Origin: Eledone cirrhosa
Lineage: Eukaryota
DNA length: 64,000 nucleotides
Direction of reading: 5' to 3'
Assembly (NCBI GenBank): GCA_964016885.1
Contig: OZ024742.1
Coordinates: forward strand, 259,284,001 to 259,348,000
Of this stretch, positions 9,076 to 59,543 are shown piece by piece. The notes under the pieces are model-generated. The model worked only from the letters and a program-made list of their open reading frames with translations, made no database searches and was not told the DNA's origin. Position 1 is the first letter of the stretch, and each line of letters opens with the position of its first letter. Made by a program: the position numbers and the translations under genes.

Positions 9076-9660
9076 CTAGGGCGGGTAAAATTCCTGAGAT
9101 CCATGGACGAGTTCTCTCCAGCGGTCTCTGTCCCTCATTATCGCTGCCATGTCCTGCGTCTCCAACAGACCAGTGTCTGTCCTAAAGGCATCAACATACG
9201 TTAACCTTGGCCTTCCTCTTCCAGTGTGTCCAGGTAGGGACGCCCACAGGAGCACTGAGTGCAATGTCAACTCTGGATGTCGGTGAGCATGTCCAGCTAA
9301 CGTCACTCTCCTCTGTGTCACTTTTGAGCTGACTTTTGGGAGGCTCCCATACATCTCTGAGTTTTTCACACTCAGTGTATACTGATTAATGTTCAGAGCC
9401 ATCCTCAGCATTCTCGTGTAGCACCCATCCACCATCTGAGTGAGTTTCTTGGTCAGTGTCCAAGTCTCAGACCCGTACAGCAGCACAGACTCCACTACAG
9501 CAATGAAGAGGCGGATTTTCAGGTCTTTACGAAGGTCTGACTTCCACACCGATCTCAAGTTGTGGCACGCCGCCCAGGCTTTCCTCCCCCTCTCAACCAC
9601 ATCATCTTCCGTATTACCAATCTTTGCTCCCAAATACAGGAAGTCCTCAACCAATTCAAT
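9076..9660 (-). mobile_element. RTE-type LINE C-terminal fragment (post-RT thumb region)
   Basis: 192-aa ORF VEDFLYLG...KIRLFIAVVESVLLYGSETWTLTK...YTRMLR...GRGRP...DRDRWR, typical of the RTE/RTEX C-terminus. Confidence 0.9.
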
Positions 9661-9746
9661 ATGAAATACATATAACAGTGATTACATATTATGTGGAATA
9701 TTGTGTAATACAAACATACCGACTACTATTACTAATTCATTATTTT

Positions 9747-17427: not shown

Positions 17428-17710
17428 TATTGAAATTTCCGTTGGAAACAGAAAAGGTCATAGAAATGAAGAGTGCTCTATGTAAGTATCAGAGCAAAAT
17501 TTAATGTATAAAAATCAATACAATATAATTACCTCATTACCAGAGGTTTCCCGAATGAGGCGAATACGAAATAAACGACTTCATTCGTTCGTCAGACGAG
17601 GCAATAATATATTGCCTCGTCTGACGAACGAATGAAGTCGTTTATTTCGTATTCGCCTCATTCGGGAAACCTCTGGTAATGAGGTAATTATATTGAATTG
17701 ATTTTTATAC

Positions 17711-26158: not shown

Positions 26159-26377
26159 TTATTGGCGAACTACGTAGGAAATCGTATTATCGTGAGCTCC
26201 GCAACGGTTTGTTGTTTTCAGTTGTTTAAAATTGCCATTTATGGAAATTTTTTGTTGTTAAGTGTTTATAAGTTCACATCTATTGTTTTTGGAAAAGGAC
26301 ACTCAAAAGGATTGGGGCCTTGAGCCCAAAATTTAAACTTTTATAATTATCAAACAAAAAATTTCTTTGAAAACATC

Positions 26378-28296
26378 ATGGACGACTCACAGCCACACCA
26401 GGCTGACAGCCTTCCTCAGAAACTGACACCTCACACCACCACCACCTTTGTAAATATTTCTAAGTTTCCCTACACTAAAAATATAAGCAGTAGCAATAAT
26501 TTAAATTTGTCTCATGCAGACATTCATTTCCCGCCATTACCACAAACTGCAGGTGTTAAAGTAACCACCCCCACCACCACAACAGCGACAACAGAAACAA
26601 AAGAAAAAAATAAATTATTATCTCGTGACATCGAAATGGATTCACCCAGAATCGACTCTTCCACACCGAACACCAATGACGCCACCACAACCACAACTGA
26701 AACTAAAAATAACAATAACAAAAATAACAATAACAACAACAGCAACAACAACAATGAGAATAACAACAAAAACATCAACACCACCGGAAATGTGTCATTT
26801 GCCAAAGCAGCCAAGAAATGCGAAACAATCGAAGTAACTCAGGAGGAATTAAATGAAGCCAAGAGAATGGTAAAGAAAAAAGATGGGTACAGGGTCAGCC
26901 CCCCCCCCCCCCCCACACACACACACCTAATAAAATGGAGCATCAGCGCCTATGTACCGTGTCTTATCGGACGATTAACACAAAATCGCGCCGGGGACAT
27001 GTGTGGGCGGAAAAAACCCACATCAAACGTGGGCAGAAATATGGAACCATGGACGTGTTCTTTGGAACTCCACAGGAGGCCAGAGAGCACTCCATGGCCC
27101 CATTAAGAAGCGACGACTTCACACTCGTCCCAAGCTATTGTGGCCAGAGCCTCGTGGAGATCAGGGTGACCCACGTTCCACCGGCCATCGGAATTCCCTG
27201 GCTAATGGCTGCCGTCCTCGCCGTCATCGAGGCCAACACCAAAATAATTGAAATATCAAAAGAAAAGCAGGAAAACTGGTCCGGATCTGGGATGGAGCTC
27301 CTGATCCAAGCGGACCAAAAAAGCATTGAGGAAATCCCAGAGGTAATAGGCCCCACCGACGACAGCCACTTCACCGTAACCGTCGAGGGTAGAAGCCCTA
27401 GGTGTGTCGTTTGTGGTGAAGGAACCCACCTAAAGGCTTTCTGCCCTCAGGCTAAAAGGTTGAGTCCACCTCTCTTACCCACCCCAGCGAATCAACCATC
27501 AACACTACAAGCAGCAGAAATGGCAGCAACAACTGTAGCAACAACAGAAGCAACTGTAGCAGCAACAACCCCAGGAAGAGTAGCAGAACTAACACCTCCA
27601 CCACCCACCGCGCCAGAACCAAAACCAACGCCTGTGGAGGATTTTCCACTCCCCGACCTATCGCAACTGCAGACAGATTGTGACGACGAGGAGTGGGAAA
27701 CTGTATCAGGAAAAAAGAAAAAAAGAAAAAGAATCCCAAAAAGAAAAAATCCTCTTCCTTCCCCCTCCAAAAACAAAATACAGAGGGAAACAAATAAACT
27801 ATCAAACAAAAAGTTAGGACAGCTATGAAACCATCCACACCAGCATCACCAACCCATCACCACAAACACCAACACCATCACCATCATTATCCCCAACACC
27901 ACCATCACCAACACCACAAAAGTCACCAAAAAGCGAAACAGAAACAAACCCACAAGAAACGCAAACAAACGCAAACAAAACAAAACAACCAAAACGATAC
28001 ACACTACACATCATTAAATTTGAATAACAACCAATTATTGCACTACATCCAACACAACACCAGCATCACAGAAAAAGACTACACAACACCCCAAAACTTC
28101 ATACCACCTCTACACATACAAATCACTCGCATCACAGAAAACGTACACGACACTAAAACAAAAGTTCCCCAAAGACATCGGAGACTTCCGACAAGCACTC
28201 TCCATAAGGACTCTGTATAAGGACATCCTTCCGGAGGAGGCCACAAACAGTGAAAAGGATGGACGAACCATCCTTCCTCTACGAGAAGTGAGGTAA
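26378..28296 (+). pseudogene. Tx1 ORF1 (gag-like, CCHC zinc knuckle), frameshifted
   Basis: SFAKAAK motif, CVVCGEGTHLKAFC knuckle, WETVSGKKKKRK, low-complexity T/N/P tracts; frameshift at the poly-C near 26900. Confidence 0.8.
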
Positions 28297-28330
28297 GTGG
28301 TCTTTCCCATCTTTTCCACTCCTTTTCAAC

Positions 28331-31300
28331 ATGACCTCACTCAGAATAGGCAGCATAAATGCGCGTGGTTTGGGGTCGTCATGGAAGCAGGGCCATCTGC
28401 TCAACAACCTCAGGTCACTAAACATAGATGTAGTGGGCATCAGCGAGCCCAGAATCTCCGAAGCACGGGCCTTCGCACCGATCTTCGGCAGCTACGATGT
28501 GTATGCATCTCCCAGCCGTCCTGGATCGGGAGTAGGAGTTGCTGTGCTTTTTCGGATAGGTTTGGATCTCGCCATACGGGCCATCTTCCTGGACCCAGAA
28601 AGTAAGTTGTTGGTGCTGGACGTGACCAACGGAGACGGGCAAGCTTTCAGGCTAGTGGCCATCTATGCCCCGACAGGAGCAGGGCGGCCTGATTTCTTCC
28701 GGCGTCTGGAGACCTTTCTTGGAACGTCCCGCTCTTTAGTGTTAGTGGGCGACTGGAACGGGATCTTAGATGCACGCAGGGACTGTGTGGGATTAGCGGA
28801 TAGGGGAGGATGGTGCAAGAGCCTCACCAACCTGCTCAGGCGTTTTGAGGTACCGATTAGATTTCCCGAATGTGCCAATCTGGACTTGGAGAAACCGCAT
28901 CGGGTCATCCAGATCATATCTAGATAGAGTATTTTGTAGGGAAATAGATAGGTCTAGCATAGGCTGTCCACAGTTCAAGATAGTCAGCTACACGGACCAC
29001 ACATTCGTGATCTATGTGGTTGACTTAGATAGGCTTCATAGACAAGGACCCGGCTACTGGAAGCTAAACGCGTCCTTACCGGCGCGCAAGGCCTACAGAG
29101 ACCGGATTAGCCAACTAGTTAAGCGGTCGTTGACGGGGGCCAGCGTCAACAACAAGTGGTGGTTAGCTCTGAAAAGAGCGATTATAATAGAGTCCATTAG
29201 GTTTAGTAAGGCTTTAGCTATAGCGAATAATAGAGCAGAGGGAGAACTAGTTAGCAAAGGCATCGCGACCGACGTACTTGCGGCGAAATTGGTCCTTGAC
29301 CAATTCTTCAATGCAAAGCACGAAGGCTGCGTTGTCAGATCTAGGATACGTGCTCTCAGACACGAGGGGACGAAAGCCGTTCAATGGGCCCGAGTGGCGG
29401 AGGCGCGTCGTGCCAACAAAGACACGATCCGGTCTTTGTTGGACCACGACTGGCGCATGATACTCGATCCCGGGCAAATGTATGAAGCTTTTCAGCGACA
29501 CTTCGCTCAGCTGTTCGGGGCAGCGGCGGGTCGGATGGAGGGTTGGACATTAGTGTCTACCTCGACGGACTGCCGCGGCTCTCTGCCACTGAGGCGGAGT
29601 GTTGCGAAAAGCCGATAACAGCCGCTGAAGTACGGGAGGCAATGACTGGCTGCACAAGGGGTAAATCGCCTGGTTTGGATCATCTGCGCTATGAATTTTA
29701 CGTACAGATGCCAGACTTGTTCGGAGGCCTCTTGGTGGACGTCTACTGCAACTGGCAACAGAACGGGAGAATTCCCATCTCTGTGAGCCGAGGAGCGGTG
29801 GCGCTGCTGAGAAAGGATCCGAACAAGGGGGATAACGTAGATAATTTCAGGCCCATAACTCTGCTAAACCAGAGTTCAAGATTTTGGCCAAGGTGCTAGT
29901 AAAGAGGTTGGCGCTTGTCGTTGGTGGTCTGGTGGGAGAAGCGCAGACATGCGCCATTCCCGACAGATCCATCCACGACAACCTCCACATCATGCGATAC
30001 ATCGTAGAGAGGGTAGCTAGGGAACATGGCACGGGTGGGTCCTTGATCAATTTAGATCAGTCGAAAGCTTTCGATAGGGTCGACCCTCGTTACCTAGCGG
30101 CAGTCCTGAGGGCCGCTGGCTTTGGGCCCGTCTTCAGAAGCTGGATCGCTGCCATGCAGAGCGACATCTGCTCTGTGGTGAGAGTGAACGGTCACCTTTC
30201 GAAACCGTTCAACATCATGCGCTCGTTCCGCCAAGGATGTCCCCTCTCGTCCCTCTTGTACGTATTGACTCTCGAGCCATTACTGCACAAAATGGAGACG
30301 TTGAGGGGGTCCCGCGCGAAGATCCGTGTCAGCAAATGCGGACGATGTCACCGCAGTGGTGTCGAACGCCAAACACATCGAGGCGATCGGCACTACACTA
30401 AGAGAATACGAAGCGGTGACAGGAGCAATGGTCAACCAGGAAAAGTCAGTGGGCCTGCAACTCGGCACCTGGAGAGGCAGTTCCATGCCGTCCAACAGCG
30501 TCGTCAGGCGCTGGACGGACGGACCGGTTAAATTGCTAGGGGTCTGGTTCAGTCGGGACCTCCAGATGGACAAAAACTGGGACGAGGTGACGAGCAGGGT
30601 GACTTCTCTCACCCAGTAATGGGCGGAGAGTAAGCTATCCCTGAAAGGTCGAGCGGAGGTGGCTTACGCGTACATCGCGTCCGTCATCTACTACCGCCTG
30701 AGCGTTGTACCTTGTCCTAAGCCTCGCCTTACTGCGCTGGAGCGCTTGCTCTTTCGCTTTTTCTGGAAGGGACGCGCTCCGATGGTCAGGCGGTCCATAT
30801 GCTGTTAACCACCGCTACGTGGGTGGCTGGGCATGCTGTGGCTGATGATGCGCAGACACGCGCTCAGGCTACGACATCTCCACCTCTTCCTCGACGGTGA
30901 TCAGGTGTGGTCGCTGTTTGCTAGACGCGTCTTTCCCCAGCTCGTCTCCTTGACGGAGCTGCATTCCTGGGTCAAGCGAAGACCGAGAGGGAGCGCTTGG
31001 AGACTGGAATGTCTTCAGGCGCTCACAGCCCTCGACCAATCGGGCAATGTGATCGGTGGAAACTCCACCTTGGCGTTCTATAGAGGATTAGTGGAGGGGA
31101 AGAGCGACGAAAATCAACTAGCCAATCTCTTCGGAAGAACTCTCAGGCCGGGGCCTATGGACAACTTCCAGAAATCCCTGGCCTGGCAGTGCTACCGAGA
31201 AGCTTTGCCAGTTCGGGATAAACTCTACAGGCATGGAGGTGCCGTCAGCCGGGCATGTCCGAGATGCGCGCAGGGCGACGAAACCGTCCTGCACGCACTC

Positions 31301-31618
31301 GTCCAGTGTCCGAGCATTGCTGACTCGTGGGTTTATGTCGAACACCTTCTGTCGCGTGTAGGACGGATCCGGCTATCAGCTGAGTCCATCGTGAGGATTG
31401 CCCCGCCCTCTTCCTTTAGCCGGGAAGGGCAGGCAATTTTTATCTGTCTGGTGGCCATGGCGAAAGAGATAGTATGGTGGACACGTTTGAAAGGGCTGAA
31501 GACGAGCACTTACCTCTTCGGTCATGCCCTGATTAACTTTTTCAAATCTCATTTGAAAAGGAAAATCAGGGTAGAAAGGAAGTGCTCTCTTCCCAGCATT
31601 GTGTTGAAAGATGGGTGA
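28331..31618 (+). pseudogene. Tx1 ORF2: APE endonuclease + reverse transcriptase + zinc finger, disrupted
   Basis: SINARGL, IYAP, GDWN, YLDR, YTDH, YWKLN, KSPGLD, NFRPITLLN, LDQSKAFDRV, RQGCPLS, ANADDV (mutated YADD), CPRC...ETVLHALVQC. Multiple frameshifts and stops. Confidence 0.93.
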
Positions 31619-48932: not shown

Positions 48933-50060
<1,128 letters not shown>

Positions 50061-50064
<4 letters not shown>

Positions 50065-50290
50065 TAAACGGAATACAAAATGCTGACCAAATTGTTCACA
50101 GTTGAAAAATGGTTTAATTAGGAATAAAAGAGTATTAGTAATTGTATGGGTTAGTATTCAGTTGTGGTTTTAAGTTTTTAAGTTTTTACCGGTTGCGCAT
50201 TTCTAAATGCTTTTCAAAAATAATTTTGAGATAGAGTGTCCGTGTTGTTTGCTCTGATCAGGGATCAGAGCAAACAACACGGACACTCTA
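50061..50290. mobile_element. Fold-back element family A, second copy
   Basis: Full unit (50061-50259) highly similar to the reverse complement of 163-360, followed by an inverted 28-bp copy of its end and (TA)n. Confidence 0.8.
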
Positions 50291-50350
50291 TATATATATA
50301 TATACATGTATATATTATAGTTATATGTTATATATATATATATATATATA

Positions 50351-51330
50351 TACAAATAAAATATAGAGTTATTCATATAGATACTCTGCAATTAACAAGC
50401 TCAAAGTATAAATACTGAGCATTATAATATTAATATGTGTAAACACAGTAAATCCCGTGTCTAAAATTACGAGGGTAGATTACACCACAAATGTTATATA
50501 TCATTCACCCTGAATCATATGGGATGATACAAGATTTCTTACAAGATTTCTCATACATACCATATCAATAACCATTTCATCTGCCGGACAGACTAAAGAT
50601 TTAATCTGTTTCGCCCTGAATGAATCGTGTTTGTAACAAGTAATCCGTAGGCATTTCGTCAGCGAGAGATAAGATTAAATGTTACACAACACCTATAACG
50701 ATAAACTCACTAAAGTTTACACCTCGTGCGTTGAAAATCATATGCGGTGCGAGTGGTTATGCTAGAAATAATAGCCTATTTACACTCATTTTTTTAAGCT
50801 CAACAGATAAGGAGCCGAAATACAAATAAAATATAGAGTTATTGACACATATTATTATTATAATGCTAAGTATTTATACGTTGAGCTTGTTAATTGCAGG
50901 GTATCTATATGAGTTAATAACTCTATATTTTATTTGTATTACGGCTCCTTATCTGTTGAGATTATAAAAATGAGTGTAAACATTATTTCTAGCATAACCA
51001 CTCGCACCCCATATGACTTTCAACGCACGAGGTGTAAACTTTAGTGAGTTTATCGTTATAGGTGTTGTGTAACATTTAATCTCATCTCTCGCTGACGAAA
51101 TGCCTACGGATTACTTGTTACAAACACGATTTATTCAGGGCGAAACAGGTTAAATCTTTAGTCTGTCCGGGAGATGAAATGGTTATTGATATGGTATGTA
51201 TGAGAAATCTTGTAAGAAATCTTGTAACATCCCATATGATTCAGGTTGAATGATATATAACATTTGTGGTGTAATCTACCCTCGTAATTTTAGACACGAG
51301 ATTTACTGTGTTTACTTCTACACATATTAA
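50351..51330. mobile_element. Head-to-head pair of ~470-475-nt circularly permuted monomers, each with a hammerhead (retrozyme-like)
   Basis: ~400-bp inverted repeat (50440-50843 vs 50915-51315). TACAAATAAAATATAGAGTTATT at 50351 and 50821; ACACATATTA at 50845 and 51320. Confidence 0.8.
51083..51176 (+). ncRNA. Type I hammerhead ribozyme candidate with full stem III; mirror copy at 50578-50671 (-)
   Basis: Stem I CATCTCTCG/CGGGAGATG, CTGACGA, stem II GCCT/GGGC after a 3-nt AAT insert, GAAA, stem III CAGGTTAAA/TTTAGTCTG, GUC site. Confidence 0.75.
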
Positions 51331-53907
51331 TATATATACATATATATGTTACATTTATATGTTATATATATATACATATATATTACATTTATATGTTATA
51401 TATATATACATATATATTACATTTATATGTTATATATGTATATATGTTATAGGCTGCCGGTGTGTATATATACATATACAGACCGGCAGCATCAGTTGAG
51501 ACCCCTTTTGTATTTGTTTTATTAAACTGAAAAGAATTATAGGCTGGCTATGTTGAATTATGCAATATTTCGCCAGTTCCTAAATTAACTATTGTAAATC
51601 ATTTGATACCTTTTTACACTGTCTCAGTTATATTTACTGTCGCCCAATTATTTCTAATTAGAGTTTCTAGAAAACCCACTTGCTGAAAGGCAAAAGTGAA
51701 GAGAAAAACAATGAGTTGAAATAGACTTTTGTTTATTATCTCATTAATTCCATTGTGCTAATTACAATGTCAATTAAGCAAGCGGTTGATAGGCTGTTTG
51801 ATTTTTTTTTCGTTTTTTTTTTGTTTTGGGGGGGTTTTTTTGTTCTTATGTACAACACCTCCTTGTACCTTTCGGTAATAAGTCAATGTTGACCAAGTAA
51901 TTGAAGTGATCGACTAAAGATTGAATGGTTATTATCATCATTATATTTTTTTTTTTTCGCGAACTATACTACATATTAACTGACCGTAAAACAAGGAAAT
52001 ATTATGTTTCATATACCTTAGTCAAACTTCTTTGCAAAATGTGTTTTCATCCGTTCTGTGTTACCAAATGGACAATGGATTCAGGAGTTATGAGTTTTCT
52101 TTGGGCGTATTTAGTGGAGATGAACCTATTGCAAGCATTTAGCCCGGCTCTACGTTTTGATGCCGAATCAGAGTGACAAAATTTCTGACAATACTGCGCC
52201 TTTGAATTACAGACTGTGTCCGTCGTACGAGTTTCCGGGCATTTTCCTTCCATCAAACCTCTTTCACTCACAAGGCGTAGGTCGACCCATGGTTACTGTA
52301 AATGAAAGTAGGTTCGACTCCAGACGTAATGTTTGCGAATCAAACTTTGTAACCATTCTGCCTGCTGTGTCCTATTATGTACACTAGATTTATCTAATAA
52401 CAATTCATCATTTCGTATATCGCCTTCATATTGGATTGCTATAATATAGTCTTTGATATCATTACTTCTACTAAAGATAATTCAAATCGAGGAAACTACT
52501 TCATTTTCTCAAGCTCTGTATTAACATACAATTAATTTAGGGATTCCATGCAGAATAATTATTTCTTATTCATTATTTTCTGTGTTACGAGTAACTTTCC
52601 TTTTATGTCAGTATAAGACAAAATACACAAGCGAGGAGAGTGTGTTTTCTACGTATTAATTATATTGGCCTGGATAGTTCTTGTCTGAACTAGCAGGATG
52701 TGATTTTCTAAAATAGAATTATATACACTATATAAACCAGTTTAGATGTATGTGTGCTGAGCCTCCATCTGTTTCAGCGATGAGGAAATCAGTTTCTTGT
52801 TAACAACAGTGCATGAAATTAACCTGCAAGTGGCTAAATATTCCACAGAAAACAGTACACTTATCGCGCTTCTCGGAAGGAAGGCAGCCTGACCCAATTT
52901 TTGATACGGCTGAATCTTTGAATTACAAGTACAACCCATTTTTTCTAGCAACGTGGACTGGAGTAATGTTAAATATAATGTCCTCCTCAGGAGCACAAGG
53001 TACCACATGCTAATCGAAATATCGACCTAAAGATCGTGACTCTAACATTCTAAGAACGCAAACGTCTTCACAGATTTCCTAATTAAGAGAGAGAGAGAGA
53101 GAGAAAGAGAGGAAGTGATAAAGAGATATAGAAGAAACGATCCCTTGCTGGACTGGTAAGCAGTTTATCGAACTCGAAATGGTGGAAGACAAACTTGAGA
53201 AGACGTTGATGAGATTTGACAAATACCGCGAAGCATTCTATCCGATGTTCTTACGACTCCACCACTCCTCCCCTATATGAAACTATTTTGGAATTCACTT
53301 CCTTTGGTTTCGACATTGAGTCTTCTATTTGTTCGATTAATACAATAGTCTATTCATGAAATTAACATGTGAGTGGTGACGTCTGTCATTAACATGATTC
53401 TGGGGGAAATTCAGCGCTGCACAGTGTGGAACAGGGCTAACTCTGATACAGTTCATTTTACCGGCCTCAAAAGATTTTCCATCTACTTAATTTCTATCAG
53501 AAGGCTTGGGTTGACAAAGGCTATGGTACATGACACTTGACTTATATGTCACACAGCAGGATCGAACCAGGGAAGGATCAAATGAATGCAAGATGAACTT
53601 CTTAACCATTCGACCATGCTGGGTGCACTTTGAAAGTATCTAAGCGGACATATAACTTCTGGCTGACATTAATCTTCACATTATACTCAACCAATATCCA
53701 GTGAATGGTTTGAATTATTTACTTAATATAACTTCTTAATACTCACCTGATATATATTGCTTTTAGTTATCTATGTCTTTTAGGAGGTCATAAATCATTA
53801 GATAATCACTGAATAATAACAACAGGATATCGATTTTTCAAAAATTCTTTTTTATAATTCTTTGTTGTTTTTCTGTTGTTGTTTTCAAAGTCATTTTCCC
53901 GGAAGAG

Positions 53908-54905: not shown

Positions 54906-57900
54906 TCCTCCAGGAGTATATTTAACAGTACTAGCTTAGAATGAGGCCAGTACGAATAGATAGAATCCCACAACGTGTACCTCTGGATGGAGTTTCCTAC
55001 ATAAACATTTCTGTTGAGGGTAGGCAGCCTTCATGTTACCACTGTTTAAGCAGTGGTCACCTGAGGGCTTCCTCTCCTCAATTAACTGCGATAAAAAAAG
55101 GCACTACTGCCGACACCCAACACAACAAAACCACCACCACCACCACCACCACCACAACAACAACAACAACACACAAAAATAACCAAAACAAACCAAACCG
55201 CAAACACAGTCCCACCAACCCCTCCCCACCTAAAACAGCTCCAAAACACCCACAAGCACAACAGCTCTCCAAAACGAACCACTCCCCAATCACAGAGACA
55301 CCACAACGGACGAGGCACCCTCATTATCACTCAGTTATGATGAGGGAGAACCCCTCCGCTCCAAAAGGAAAAAAAAGACATAACACGAACAAAAAGGCAA
55401 CAAACATACAACCACCAACACAAACGACACAAACATTACAAACAAAAATCCCCCCTCCCGAAAACAAAACAACGGCAACACTCCAAACACAAACACCTAC
55501 ACCAAAACGAAAACACACACAAGAACAACAGACAAAAACCAACACAACACAACAAAAACATTACACATACATAAACAGTGAAAACAAAACCTTAATGTAG
55601 GTCATCTCCAACGACCCTTCGGTGAAAACCGAAGAGGAAACTTTTTCGAGCTGTGTAGACAGACCCAATTTAAAGAGGATTAGGGTCTCTACGGATACCT
55701 ATAAGTCTTTAAAGAAAAACTTTCCTAAGGGCGTGGGTAATCCTTACGTTAAACCCATTAACCGCGTCCTTTTAAAATGTTTCCTCACCCCCACCCCAGA
55801 CACCCCCACCACAGACACCCCCCATCCCACCAGACACCCCATCCACACCAAACATCTCTGTCCCCAACCCGCCAGAAACCACCACCCCACCAAACAACCC
55901 CTCCAACACCCCCATGGAAATTGTGCAGCCTGGTCCCCAGGAGACGAAGAGGTGAGTGATTTCTTTTCCTCTTCTTTTAACTTTTCAGCACCAACATGGC
56001 CAATATATGAGTTGGGTGTGTGAATGTACGCGGCCTGCGGATGCCCTGGAAAAATGGCAAACTCTTAAACGACCTCAGGTCGCACAGTATGGATGTAGTA
56101 GCCATTTGCGAGTCCAGGATCCACAGCGAGCGACAACTGCTGCCCCCGGATGGGGCATATGCGGCCACCAGCCTGAGGCTCCACCTTAACTACCGTCAAC
56201 GTCTAGGACCTCGTAACACAGACGGTACATCTGGACCCGGAGGGTCGACTGGTGGTTCTAGACGTTGACGGTAGTTAAGGTGGAGCCTTCAGGCAGGTGG
56301 CCGCATATGCCCCATCCGGAACACCGCGGCCAGACTTTTTCAAACGTTTAGAGACTTTTCTGGGAACGTCCCGCTCCCTGCTGTTAGTGGAGGACTAGAA
56401 TGGAATCCTAGATGCACGTTGGGACTATGTGGGAGCATGTCCAAATAGAGGGGGGTTTAACAGCCTCAAACAGTTAATCGGCCGATTTCAACTGGTCGAT
56501 AGATATCGACTAGATTTTCCAACTGTGCCACTGTGGACGTGGACCAACCATATCGGAACATCTAGATCGTACCGAGATAGGTTTCTAGTTGGAGTTAGTG
56601 ATAGGCACATGTTAAGCTGTCCACAAATGTTCATGGTTGCCTATTCAGATCACAAACTAGTGACCTTCTTAGTCAACCTTGATAGAACTCATAGACAGGA
56701 ACCCGGCTACTGGAAGCTGAACTTGTCGTTACCGACATGCAAAGCCTACAGTAGGCGGATTAGCACTTTAGTTAAGCAGCACTTGAGGGGGGGGGCATTG
56801 TAAACAACAGATGGTGGTACTCTCTCAAGAGGGCAGTCAGATTAGACTCGATAGGTTTTAGTAAAGAATTAGTGTTAGATAGAAATAAGACCGAAAAGGA
56901 ACTGGTAGATAAAGTAGAATAGGCACTTAGGAGTGGCAACATAGCCAGCGTGCTAACGACGGGAGCGGCATTGGACCAGTTCTTCTACGCGAAGCACGAA
57001 GGCTGCGTTGTCAGGAGCAAAATACTCTTCTCTGGGAAACGAGGGAGCCAAAGCTGTTAGGCGGGCCCGAGGGACAGAGGCGAAACGTGGCAATAAGTCC
57101 ACGATTCGGTCTTTGAGGGACCAAGACGGACGCGTGATACGTGAGCCGAAGCAGATGTGCGCGGCCTTTCAGCAGCACTTTGCTCAACTGTTTGGGCAGG
57201 GCGGTGGGACGGGAGGGGCTATGGAATTCAGTCCATACCTCGACGGCCTTCCGCGACTCTCAGACGGCGAGGCGAAGTTCTGCAAAAGGCCGATTTTGGC
57301 CTCTGAGTTAGGGGACGTGCTGAGCCAATGCTGCAAACGCAAATCTCCAGTCTCGATGGTTTACCCTACGAATTTTACGTAGCGGTCTACTGCAACTGGC
57401 AGAAGAACGAGAGAATTGCCAGTTCTGTGACCAAGGGCGTAATCACGTTAGTCAGGAAGGACGAGAATAAGGGGGATGACATAGGCAACTTCCGGCCCAT
57501 AACTCTGCTAAACACAGAGTTGCAGATTTTGGCCAAGGGGTTGGCAAAGGGGCTGACGCTTGTCGAAGACCTGGTGGGAGAAGCGCAGACATGAGCAATC
57601 CCGACCAGGTCCATACACAACAACCTCCACCTCATGCGATACATCATAGGGAGAGTAGGGTGTAAATCCGGCTTCGATGGGGCCCTTATCAACTTGGATC
57701 AGTCTAAGGCTTTCTATAGGGTTGACCATCGTACCTGGATGCGGTGCTCGAGGCGGCAGGCTTCGGACCCGGGTTCAGGGGCTGGATTACTGCAATGCAC
57801 AGCAGCACTATCTACTCAAGGGTATTCGGAGCCGTTCCATATCACGCGGTCCATCTGACAGGGATGCGCTCTCTCCTCCCTTCTGTATGTACTGACTCTC

Positions 57901-59543
57901 GAGCCACTACTGTGGAAGTTGGAGCTATTGCAGGGCATCCCTTTGGAACCGGGACTGTGAAAAGCGGCGTCGGCCTTCACCGACGACGTGACAGTGATGG
58001 TGTCGAGCACCTCGCAAATCGGGGAGGTCGGTACCTTACTGAAGGAATACGAAAGGTTCACAGGAGCGAAGCTGAACCGGGACAATTCCGTCGGTGTGCA
58101 ACTTGGAACGTGGAGAGGCAAACCGATGCCTTCCGATGGCGTCGTCGGACGCTGGACGGAAGGACCGGTAAAGCTGCTCGGGGTCTGGTTTGGTCCAGAC
58201 CTCCAGGTGAAGAAGAACTGGAACGAGGTGACGGCCAAGGTGTTTGCGCTCACCCGGAAGTGGGTCGAGTACAAACTATCCTTGAAAGGTCGAGCGGAGG
58301 TGGTGAACACTTTTATAGCGTCCGTCATCTACTACCGCTTGACCGTTGTGCCTTGTCCAGCCAAAACGGTCACCAAAATGGAGCACGCGCTCTTCCAATT
58401 CCTTTGAAAGAAACGGGCTCCTTTGGTGAGAAGATCCATCTGCTGCCAACACCCTTCAAAACGGAGGGCTGGGGATGCCGTGGCTGACGAAGCGCAAACA
58501 CGCGCTCAAGCTATGGCACCTCCACGTATTGCTCACGGACAACCGGTGTGGGCCCCGTTCGTGAGGCGAGTCCTCACACGAGTCGTCTCGCTGACCGAGC
58601 TGCAGTCCTGGGGCAAGCAAAGACCTAGGAAAATGGGCGACTGGCACATCGAATGTGCTCAGGCGCTCACAGTCCTTTGGCAAACGGACCCGGCGATCAG
58701 TGGAGACTCCACTTCGTCATTCCATAGAGGGTGGTCCGCAGCAAGTGCGACGACGCGCTCGCAGAAATTCTAGGCGTAGAGGAAGACGAACTGGCCAGTC
58801 TGTTCGGTAGGACCCTCCACCCGGGACCGATGGACAACTTCCAAAAGTCCCTGGCATGGCAGTGCTACCGAGGAGCTCTACCAGTTCGAGACAAGCTCTA
58901 CAGACACCGGCGCCCGGGCAGGGACTCTTCGAAAAAGATCTGTCCGAAATGCGTGCGCGACGAGGAACCGTCGCGCACGCATTTGTACACTGACCGGTAG
59001 TTTCAGACCTGTGGGGCTATGTAGAACGACTATTGTCGCGGGTGGGACCAATCCAGTTGACCACCGAGTCCATTGTCATGATCAAACCGCCACCCTCCTT
59101 CAAAAACGAGGGAGAGGCGGTTTTCCTATGTGTTATGGCTATGGTGAAAGAGGTTATCCGGCGAACAACTGATTCGTTTTTTCAAATATCATTTTGGAAG
59201 AAGAATCAGGATGGAGAGAGAGGTGATGTACCCCAGCAAATTGTATAAAAGGTGGGTGAATGTGGCAAAGATGGCCCGATTTGTTGGGCCTTCTCTCTAT
59301 ATAAGCCTGTAGGTTGAGGGAAAAAAGGAAGAGAGGAAGGGAGTACTCACTCTTGGTGCTACTGGAGATGAGGGTTGTACATTTTTTCGACGTGTGTACA
59401 ACCCCTGTGTAACGCCTCCCCCCATAGAGGATTTCAATTGTTATTTGTTATTTTATTAATAGTTTTATTTTCTTATACCTGTATGTAAACTCCCCATTTC
59501 TATTTGTCCCCTTCTTTTTTGCCCTTGTGGCTAATAAAGAAAT
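54906..59543 (+). mobile_element. Second Tx1-clade LINE (related but distinct family), 5'-truncated in ORF1, next to TC-rich sequence
   Basis: ORF1 remnant VEGRQPSCYHCLSSGH; ORF2 from ATG 55996; 3' end CCCTTGTGGCTAATAAAGAAAT; (CT)n downstream. Confidence 0.9.
55996..59311 (+). pseudogene. Tx1 ORF2 (APE-RT), heavily disrupted
   Basis: NVRGL, YSDH, YWKLN, NFRPITLLN, LDQSKAF, SAFTDDV, KLLGVWFG, CPKC; colinear with 28331-31618. Confidence 0.9.

What the first reader, a model, noticed from the sequence alone, without database searches (positions are those of the whole stretch)
50351..51330. Candidate cephalopod retrozyme: two circularly permuted ~470-nt hammerhead-bearing monomers, head-to-head in (TA)n
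Seen: the minus-strand arm is one 470-nt unit plus a 23-nt terminal redundancy (50351 vs 50821). The plus-strand arm is the same unit opened at a different point, with ACACATATTA at both ends (50845 and 51320). Each arm holds a type I hammerhead with 9-bp stems I and III and a GUC site (51083-51176; 50578-50671). There is no ORF. Known: non-LTR retrozymes of animals are short hammerhead-containing monomers expressed as circular RNAs and thought to use Penelope-like RT. Inference: two different permutations of one unit imply reverse transcription from a circular or multimeric RNA. The AAT insert between the core and stem II is atypical. I do not know of a description of this family, but I could not search.
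Basis: partly seen in the sequence, partly recalled or inferred. Interest (0 to 1): 0.9.

Follow-up and report, generated by a model that had tools for sequence, protein, structure and literature searches.

The report
Ribozyme-bearing hitchhiker of Penelope retroelements
This is one copy of a genome-wide family of short non-coding repeats that carry a hammerhead-type motif predicted to cut its own RNA; their insertion scars show the two fixed start points and back-to-back arms typical of Penelope-like retroelements, which likely copy them, possibly from an RNA circle.

Summary
In detail: two back-to-back arms of one ~475-nt unit sit in (AT)n, each with a type I hammerhead motif (predicted cut after C51167). 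It is one copy of a dispersed family of many hundreds of copies in several subfamilies, with rare tandems up to a hexamer. The two "permutations" are not random openings of a circle. 296 of 343 arms end at one of two fixed sites 81 nt apart, and 75 of 80 classifiable back-to-back pairs use one of each. 5' ends vary and often pass the ribozyme site. This is the insertion signature of Penelope-like elements (PLEs), and an abundant Neptune-like PLE in this genome shows the same anatomy. No arm (0 of 351) is the terminal repeat of an ORF, so the family is non-autonomous. A more-than-unit RNA template is required; circle versus uncut multimer is undecided. Self-cleavage, expression and the partner enzyme are untested, and "cephalopod" is unverified. 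Unusual features: a 1-3-nt core insert, a conserved flank/loop II pairing, and one SINE insertion hot spot. Verdict: a new variant of animal non-LTR retrozymes, with footprint evidence for PLE mobilisation.

The parts
50289..50349 (.). Left (AT)n target flank
50350..50843 (-). Minus arm, about 1.05 units; 3' end at fixed site B (50350), 5' stop at 50843
50350..50426 (-). Tail between fixed ends A and B (about 81 nt in the family), present at this end only
50577..50672 (-). Type I hammerhead motif, predicted cut after 50587; stem I interrupted by a C-C mismatch
50843..50845 (.). 5'-to-5' (head-to-head) junction of the two arms
50845..51333 (+). Plus arm, about 1.03 units; 3' end at fixed site A (~51333)
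50860..50865 (+). Family SINE hot-spot site (unit position 20); empty in this copy, as is the minus-arm site at 50420/50421
51062..51127 (+). Predicted pairing of the 5' flank (51062-51081) with loop II (51109-51127): pseudoknot or competing fold
51082..51177 (+). Type I hammerhead motif: stem I 10 bp, core 51092-51098, 3-nt insert 51099-51101, stem II 4 bp, stem III 9 bp, predicted cut after C51167
51334..51445 (.). Right AT-rich microsatellite flank

Best explanation
This is one insertion of a non-coding, multi-copy ~475-nt hammerhead-motif repeat whose copies end at two fixed sites in (AT)n, and it was likely made by the reverse transcriptase-endonuclease of a Penelope-like element priming twice on a more-than-unit RNA. 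Shown: dispersed family, two fixed 3' ends (A and B), A+B pairing of back-to-back arms, variable 5' stops, read-through of the ribozyme site, one variant haplotype per insertion, no ORF. Inferred steps: (1) rare tandem copies are transcribed; (2) the hammerhead cuts part of the RNA to monomers that may be ligated to circles; (3) a PLE protein, likely Neptune-type, nicks both strands of (AT)n and starts one cDNA at A and one at B; (4) both cDNAs run upstream, mostly stop within about one lap, and are joined 5'-to-5'. The template is a circle (about 50%) or an uncut multimer (about 50%).
For: Ends: 296 of 343 distinct arms end at A or B and 264 of these run into (AT)n; leaving out the 30 query-biased loci, 249 of 294. 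Contigs of three public runs of one sample, which look like DNA, also show (AT)n loose ends at both sites. Pairing: 201 of 294 arms have a head-to-head partner; of 109 pairs, 75 are A+B, 3 A+A, 2 B+B, and 29 have an unclassified end. 5' truncation: in a sample taken by a 3' word, 5' stops spread over the unit and 45 of 80 uncensored arms (84 in all) pass the cut site. One template type: segregating alleles agree in 82/89 comparisons between tandem turns, 202/231 between arms of one insertion, and 63% between insertions. PLE precedent: partial tandems, inverted 5'-truncated copies, a tail at one end and (TA)n bias (PMC8557442, passages); two internal RT start sites that define the tail, nicks on both strands, uncut RNA as the main substrate (PMC11167929, parts 1-2 of 4). 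Candidate machinery: an RT + GIY-YIG family with 35,213 first-look candidates ends at two sites about 60 nt apart in (AT)n, 12 and 15 of 30 loci, 3 unresolved. Retrozyme-like: six motifs at 472-nt spacing; circular folds beat 40 shuffles (z -3.4 and -4.3), and the subfamily A fold holds the three-stem junction; core and stems are kept across units of 73-95% identity. The 5'-stop rate per 50 nt rises from 0.09-0.16 to 0.32-0.44 from about one lap onward (212 arms).
Against: No self-cleavage or RNA data. No partner with shared sequence was found; the Neptune-like family shows no similarity to the unit profile. 5' ends do not pile up at the cut site: none at +1, and 13 arms within -15..+14 against 8 and 7 in the flanking 30-nt windows. 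The rise in stops begins at a fixed position (unit 50-100) for both end classes rather than at exactly one unit length, which linear twin priming explains as well as a circle; that sample is also biased by the words used to collect it. The covariation signal is weak: 2 of 34 pairs change on both sides, both in stem I. 47 of 343 arms end elsewhere. The tail (81 nt) is longer than the 30-40 nt described for PLEs. In a related test only 1 of 9 predicted frog retrozyme dimers cleaved in vitro (bioRxiv 10.64898/2026.07.22.740005).
Confidence: 0.78

Rival explanations
1. The unit is simply the pseudo-LTR of an autonomous PLE, and these are its 5'-truncated ends.
For: Same ends, inversions and target as autonomous PLEs. 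Frog retrozymes resemble pLTRs (bioRxiv 10.64898/2026.07.22.740005).
Against: The sequence closes on itself after 451-487 nt (13 non-redundant natural units). None of 351 arms directly follows a PLE ORF end. Of 87 tail words, 55 end in (AT)n, 21 were scored as continuing into the unit, and the 11 others show no common ORF start. Only about 300 loci were read, so a rare autonomous copy is not excluded.
Confidence: 0.1
2. Non-autonomous PLE derivative copied only from uncut linear multimer transcripts; the hammerhead is slow, protein-dependent or vestigial, and no circle forms. This differs from the best explanation only in steps 2 and 4.
For: Read-through of the cut site and no pile-up there. 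In Poseidon, cleavage is not needed and needs protein. 3-nt core insert, competing rod fold and flank/loop II pairing.
Against: Long source arrays look rare: one hexamer and few arms above 1.5 units, yet inverted pairs like this one need more than 2 uncut units on a linear RNA. A 9-bp stem III is fit for monomer cleavage and is conserved across subfamilies.
Confidence: 0.35
3. A dispersed satellite or foldback DNA repeat spread by DNA-level events (recombination, hairpin capture in microsatellites), with no RNA step.
For: The window copy looks like a palindrome; copies sit in unstable (AT)n.
Against: Strict polarity (fixed 3', ragged 5'), the A+B rule and a conserved ribozyme core on one strand have no DNA-level explanation.
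Confidence: 0.03
4. A SINE-like passenger of a LINE (RTE, Dong/R4 or Tx1) rather than of a PLE.
For: LINE remnants are in the window, and LINE twin priming also gives 5' inversions (recalled).
Against: The ends are internal to a circularly closing unit and come as two alternatives. The real SINE in these loci behaves differently, with one 3' end and target duplications.
Confidence: 0.06

Closest known systems
Animal non-LTR retrozymes (Cervera & de la Pena 2020, PMC7229834; Li, Clavereau & Pollet, bioRxiv 10.64898/2026.07.22.740005)
   Same: Non-coding low-GC unit with a type I hammerhead; monomers, dimers and multimers; predicted self-paired circle; coexists with PLEs; proposed PLE mobilisation.
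   Different: Mostly dispersed, 5'-truncated, 0.1-1.5-unit arms in back-to-back pairs rather than long arrays. Unit 451-487 nt against about 170-400 nt in the invertebrates studied (but inside the 51-972 nt range of the 2026 preprint). Stem III 9 bp instead of 1-2 bp. Two fixed RT start sites, which the parts of these papers that I read do not describe. Circular RNA is not shown here.
EN+ Penelope-like elements, Neptune and Poseidon clades (PMC8557442, PMC11167929, PMC4209133)
   Same: Partial tandems, inverted 5'-truncated arm, tail at one end, two internal start sites downstream of the hammerhead, AT-rich target, unpaired base(s) between positions 9 and 10.1.
   Different: No ORF; tail 81 nt; full monomer-type hammerhead rather than the minimal dimeric form of metazoan PLEs.
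Non-autonomous Chlamys elements such as MRC1 (PMC8557442, passage)
   Same: Non-autonomous PLE passengers with head-to-tail insertions.
   Different: Those generally share 3' sequence with an autonomous family and belong to a group without canonical hammerheads; no sequence-sharing partner was found here.

Membership tests
Animal non-LTR retrozyme | Short non-coding repeat unit with a type I hammerhead | tested here: met
   Rfam models did not hit
Animal non-LTR retrozyme | Tandem copies with at least two hammerheads | tested here: met
   Hexamer and some dimers in related subfamilies; not in the window copy, whose two motifs face opposite ways
Animal non-LTR retrozyme | Predicted self-paired circular monomer | tested here: met
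   z -3.4 and -4.3 against 40 shuffles each, two units
Animal non-LTR retrozyme | Self-cleavage | not testable with these tools
   needs an in vitro assay
Animal non-LTR retrozyme | Expression as linear and circular monomer RNA | not testable with these tools
   No RNA run was available to test it
PLE-mobilised element | Two internal RT start sites, tail at one end | tested here: met
   296 of 343 arms; 75 of 80 classifiable pairs A+B
PLE-mobilised element | 5' truncation, partial tandems, inverted 5'-truncated arm | tested here: met
PLE-mobilised element | AT-rich or (TA)n target | tested here: met
   264 of 296 A/B ends
PLE-mobilised element | Autonomous partner sharing terminal sequence | tested here: inconclusive
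   None in one PLE family tested (30 loci) or beside 351 arms; other PLE families were not surveyed
Autonomous PLE (unit = pLTR) | RT + GIY-YIG ORF between repeats | tested here: not met
   0 of 351 arms; 87 tail words
Hammerhead ribozyme, type I | Core CUGANGA, GAAA, NUH and three stems | tested here: met
   96% of cells paired in 33 copies
Hammerhead ribozyme, type I | At most 1-2 inserted bases between CUGANGA and stem II | tested here: not met
   3 nt in 64 of 99 classified motifs, in a sample enriched for subfamily A; 1-2 nt in 35 (PMC10085705 passage)

The most novel reading that the evidence does not exclude
The scars record a PLE enzyme priming at two sites on one circular retrozyme RNA and stalling after about one lap, which would be direct genomic evidence for the proposed circle-templated, PLE-driven spread of animal retrozymes. 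The ribozyme would be an active hammerhead variant with a 3-nt core insert and a 5'-flank/loop II pseudoknot that tunes cleavage against read-through.
Probability: 0.3. Interest if true: 0.72.

Novelty: new variant of a known kind. Interest (0 to 1): 0.5.

Why it matters
That PLEs move animal retrozymes has been proposed from co-occurrence, shared ribozymes and phylogeny (PMC7229834; bioRxiv 10.64898/2026.07.22.740005). This family carries the enzyme's footprint itself: two start sites, one per arm, in 75 of 80 classifiable pairs. It is a compact natural substrate (a conserved ~135-nt start region in a 475-nt RNA) for asking how PLEs make tails and inverted copies, and whether the template is a circle. 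If the 3-nt-insert motif cleaves, it widens the hammerhead consensus and shows a class that Rfam models miss. The locus itself has no sign of host function.

Tried and rejected
Rfam scan: no hammerhead hit at E<=10, only hairpin and microsatellite noise. Sequencing runs: no RNA holder listed. The three listed runs are one sample held as contigs and say nothing on expression. Three motifs at 5.4-kb spacing on C17 looked like an autonomous tandem but are a local duplication without a PLE ORF. Pile-up of 5' ends at the cut site: not found. One-lap length rule as proof of a circle: stops follow position, not length. Shared-flank search for a common body was spoiled by incomplete SINE masking and was replaced. 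The profile lost about 125 columns, so its coordinates were not used for counts. One locus (L017) has the same SINE junction in two tandem units; no sibling exists in the genome (2 matches, same locus), and local duplication or conversion explains it as well as copying. ARAGORN found no tRNA in the SINE-bearing locus L013. Earlier scan findings: none. Literature searches for a description of this family listed none. An octopus repeat annotation has no mention of hammerhead, ribozyme or retrozyme (PMC13282606, term search). Repbase and Dfam were not searchable, the supplement of PMC7229834 could not be read, and the preprint's supplements were not seen, so a library entry may exist. Host taxon not determined.

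Full report
OBSERVATION. The window holds two diverging arms of one unit between AT microsatellites. The minus arm (50350-50843) repeats its first 23-24 nt after 470 nt. The plus arm (50845-~51333) repeats a 10-mer after 475 nt and matches the doubled minus unit at 93%. Each arm has CUGACGA, GAAA and GUC with three stems; the predicted cuts fall after 51167 (+) and 50587 (-). Plus stem I has 10 pairs; minus stem I has a C-C mismatch. Rfam finds no hammerhead. The isolated plus motif folds 1.6 kcal/mol better as a rod than as a hammerhead. No ORF above 61 codons lies in the arms.

FAMILY. The genome (3.0 Gb) gave 1725 first-look candidates, 40 scored. Exact words occur 106 (subfamily A core), 792 (3' word), 715 (loop II of other subfamilies) and 692 (tail) times, against 0-1 for controls. 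I read about 300 loci, many overlapping and mostly on the first four contigs. Natural full units are 451-487 nt and 73-95% identical to the subfamily A reference. One array has six motifs at 472-nt spacing, inverted pieces at its 5' side and an (AT)n run at its 3' end; its four full units differ at 0-7 positions. Below, q is the position in a subfamily A unit: q1 = window 50845, cut after q328.

ENDS. Of 343 distinct arms, 143 end at site A (q1-30), 153 at site B (q66-102, mode q95) and 47 elsewhere; 264 of the 296 run into (AT)n. Site A maps to about q14 by sequence. Leaving out the 30 loci chosen for full-length match, 249 of 294 end at A or B and 201 of 294 have a 5'-to-5' partner. Among 109 such pairs, 75 are A+B, 3 A+A, 2 B+B, and 29 have an unclassified end. 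The window copy is an ordinary A+B pair. 5' ends are ragged: in the sample taken by a 3' word, 45 of 80 uncensored arms (of 84) pass the cut site, none starts at +1, and the excess around the site is slight (13 against 8 and 7 per 30 nt). Among 212 arms of at least 84% identity, stops per 50 nt are 0.09-0.16 from q349 to q101 and 0.32-0.44 from q100 upstream; the sampling words bias this. Arms of one insertion share variant alleles (82/89 tandem, 202/231 across arms, 63% between insertions) and differ by about 4.3% at other sites, close to the 4.8% between insertions. One template type per event and an old, decaying subfamily follow by inference.

NOT A pLTR. With five PLE protein fragments as queries, none of 351 arms directly follows an ORF end. 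The three distinct upstream cases are separated by the PLE's own end and an (AT)n run, or by an inverted arm. Of 87 tail words, none shows a common ORF start downstream. One arm (L059) is fused directly to a truncated Neptune-like ORF; this may be a template switch or a deletion. That PLE family has RT, a cysteine linker and GIY-YIG (weak Pfam hits below cut-off). The Neptune label is mine, from the linker described in PMC8557442, which Nematis shares. The family is abundant and ends at two sites about 60 nt apart in (AT)n (12 and 15 of 30 loci, 3 unresolved), but shares no detectable sequence with the unit. It is a model for the partner, not a proven partner.

RIBOZYME. In 100 distinct motifs found by a pattern that itself demands the core, the base(s) between A9 and G10.1 number 3 in 64, 2 in 14 and 1 in 21 of 99 classified. 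One unpaired base there is usual in PLE hammerheads (PMC4209133, passages). More than two was not seen in known alignments (PMC10085705, passage). I aligned 33 of 37 non-redundant motifs. Four more rows were left out by hand, and earlier filters dropped five loci with deletions plus windows that were short or lacked a flank motif (83 of 100 kept). In that alignment 96% of cells pair, with two-sided changes at 2 pairs of stem I only. A 14-pair match between the 5' flank and loop II is 96.5% paired, without two-sided change; the flank filter inflates this figure, so it is a prediction. It could be a tertiary pseudoknot or a fold that delays cleavage. Two natural monomers fold as circles better than shuffles (z -3.4, -4.3), and the subfamily A fold leaves the hammerhead formed.

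MECHANISM. A purified Poseidon PLE nicks both strands of AT-rich DNA, starts cDNA at two internal RNA sites that define the tail, and uses uncut RNA (PMC11167929, parts 1-2 of 4). PLE insertions are partial tandems with an inverted 5'-truncated copy and a tail at one end (PMC8557442, 12 passages). The family fits this point by point, so I infer priming at A on one strand and B on the other, with the two cDNAs joined at their stops. The template must exceed one unit. A circle, proposed for PLEs (PMC4209133) and shown as RNA for coral, mussel and axolotl retrozymes (PMC7229834, parts 2-4 of 6), explains the rarity of long arrays and the rise in stops after about one lap. An uncut multimer explains the read-through and the fixed stop zone equally well. 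I put these at even odds. Cleavage, expression and partner are untested.

KNOWN AND NEW. It works like a PLE passenger and meets the sequence-level criteria of animal non-LTR retrozymes; the RNA-level criteria could not be tested. A 2026 preprint already argues that animal retrozymes are non-autonomous PLE derivatives (bioRxiv 10.64898/2026.07.22.740005, parts 1-3 of 5). My searches listed no description of this family, nor of paired start sites in a retrozyme; repeat libraries and two supplements were not seen. The additions are the footprint evidence, a long-stem-III motif with a variable insert, and a SINE hot spot. At q20, 32 of 87 tail words carry an antisense SINE. Background is at most 0.015 SINE ends per 5-letter target motif, or 0.084 per very AT-rich one. 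Forty cases show 33 different insert lengths, which points to independent insertions.

VERDICT. Real feature; new variant of a known kind; interest 0.5.

Noticed in passing
unit position 20 (window 50864/50865 and 50420/50421, both empty); e.g. L002, L011, L071: An abundant ~190-nt SINE-like repeat inserts antisense at the same site of the unit in 32 of 87 tail copies, with 33 different insert lengths in 40 cases and variable target duplications; at least about 4-fold above the most generous background. The site lies 6 nt from start site A; the cause is unexplained.
   Followed up: partly
window 49810-50011 and 50062-50291: Two more back-to-back 3' remnants of other (AT)n-targeting repeat families adjoin this insertion; the first holds the 3' half of another hammerhead family. 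The locus is a nested hot spot.
   Followed up: partly
window 17538-17678: A head-to-head pair of type I hammerhead motifs of another family, one per strand.
   Followed up: no
flanks of many loci, e.g. L073, L096, L142, L150, L051, L090: At least six unrelated type I hammerhead-like families turn up by chance in flanks, several with long stem III; the genome seems rich in such motifs.
   Followed up: no
L059 / L201 3166 (G000:C3 ~97.756 Mb): Unit position 198 is fused without an AT run to a 5'-truncated Neptune-like ORF; possibly a template switch that would name the partner.
   Followed up: partly
L017 (G000:C4 164.689 Mb): Two tandem units carry the same SINE junction, found nowhere else in the genome.
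   Followed up: yes
G000:C1 42.756-42.759 Mb (L179-L185): Hexameric array of a diverged subfamily, a candidate source locus; two of its units are identical while others differ at 5-7 positions.
   Followed up: partly
G000:C17 7.69-7.71 Mb (L061, L062): A ~5.4-kb segment with one insertion of this family is tandemly triplicated.
   Followed up: yes
window 26324-31618 and 54935-58487: GC-rich remnants of LINEs with endonuclease- and RT-like frames (Tx1-like by my recall); an RTE-like fragment at 9076-9681. No host gene was recognised among ORFs of 150 codons or more.
   Followed up: no
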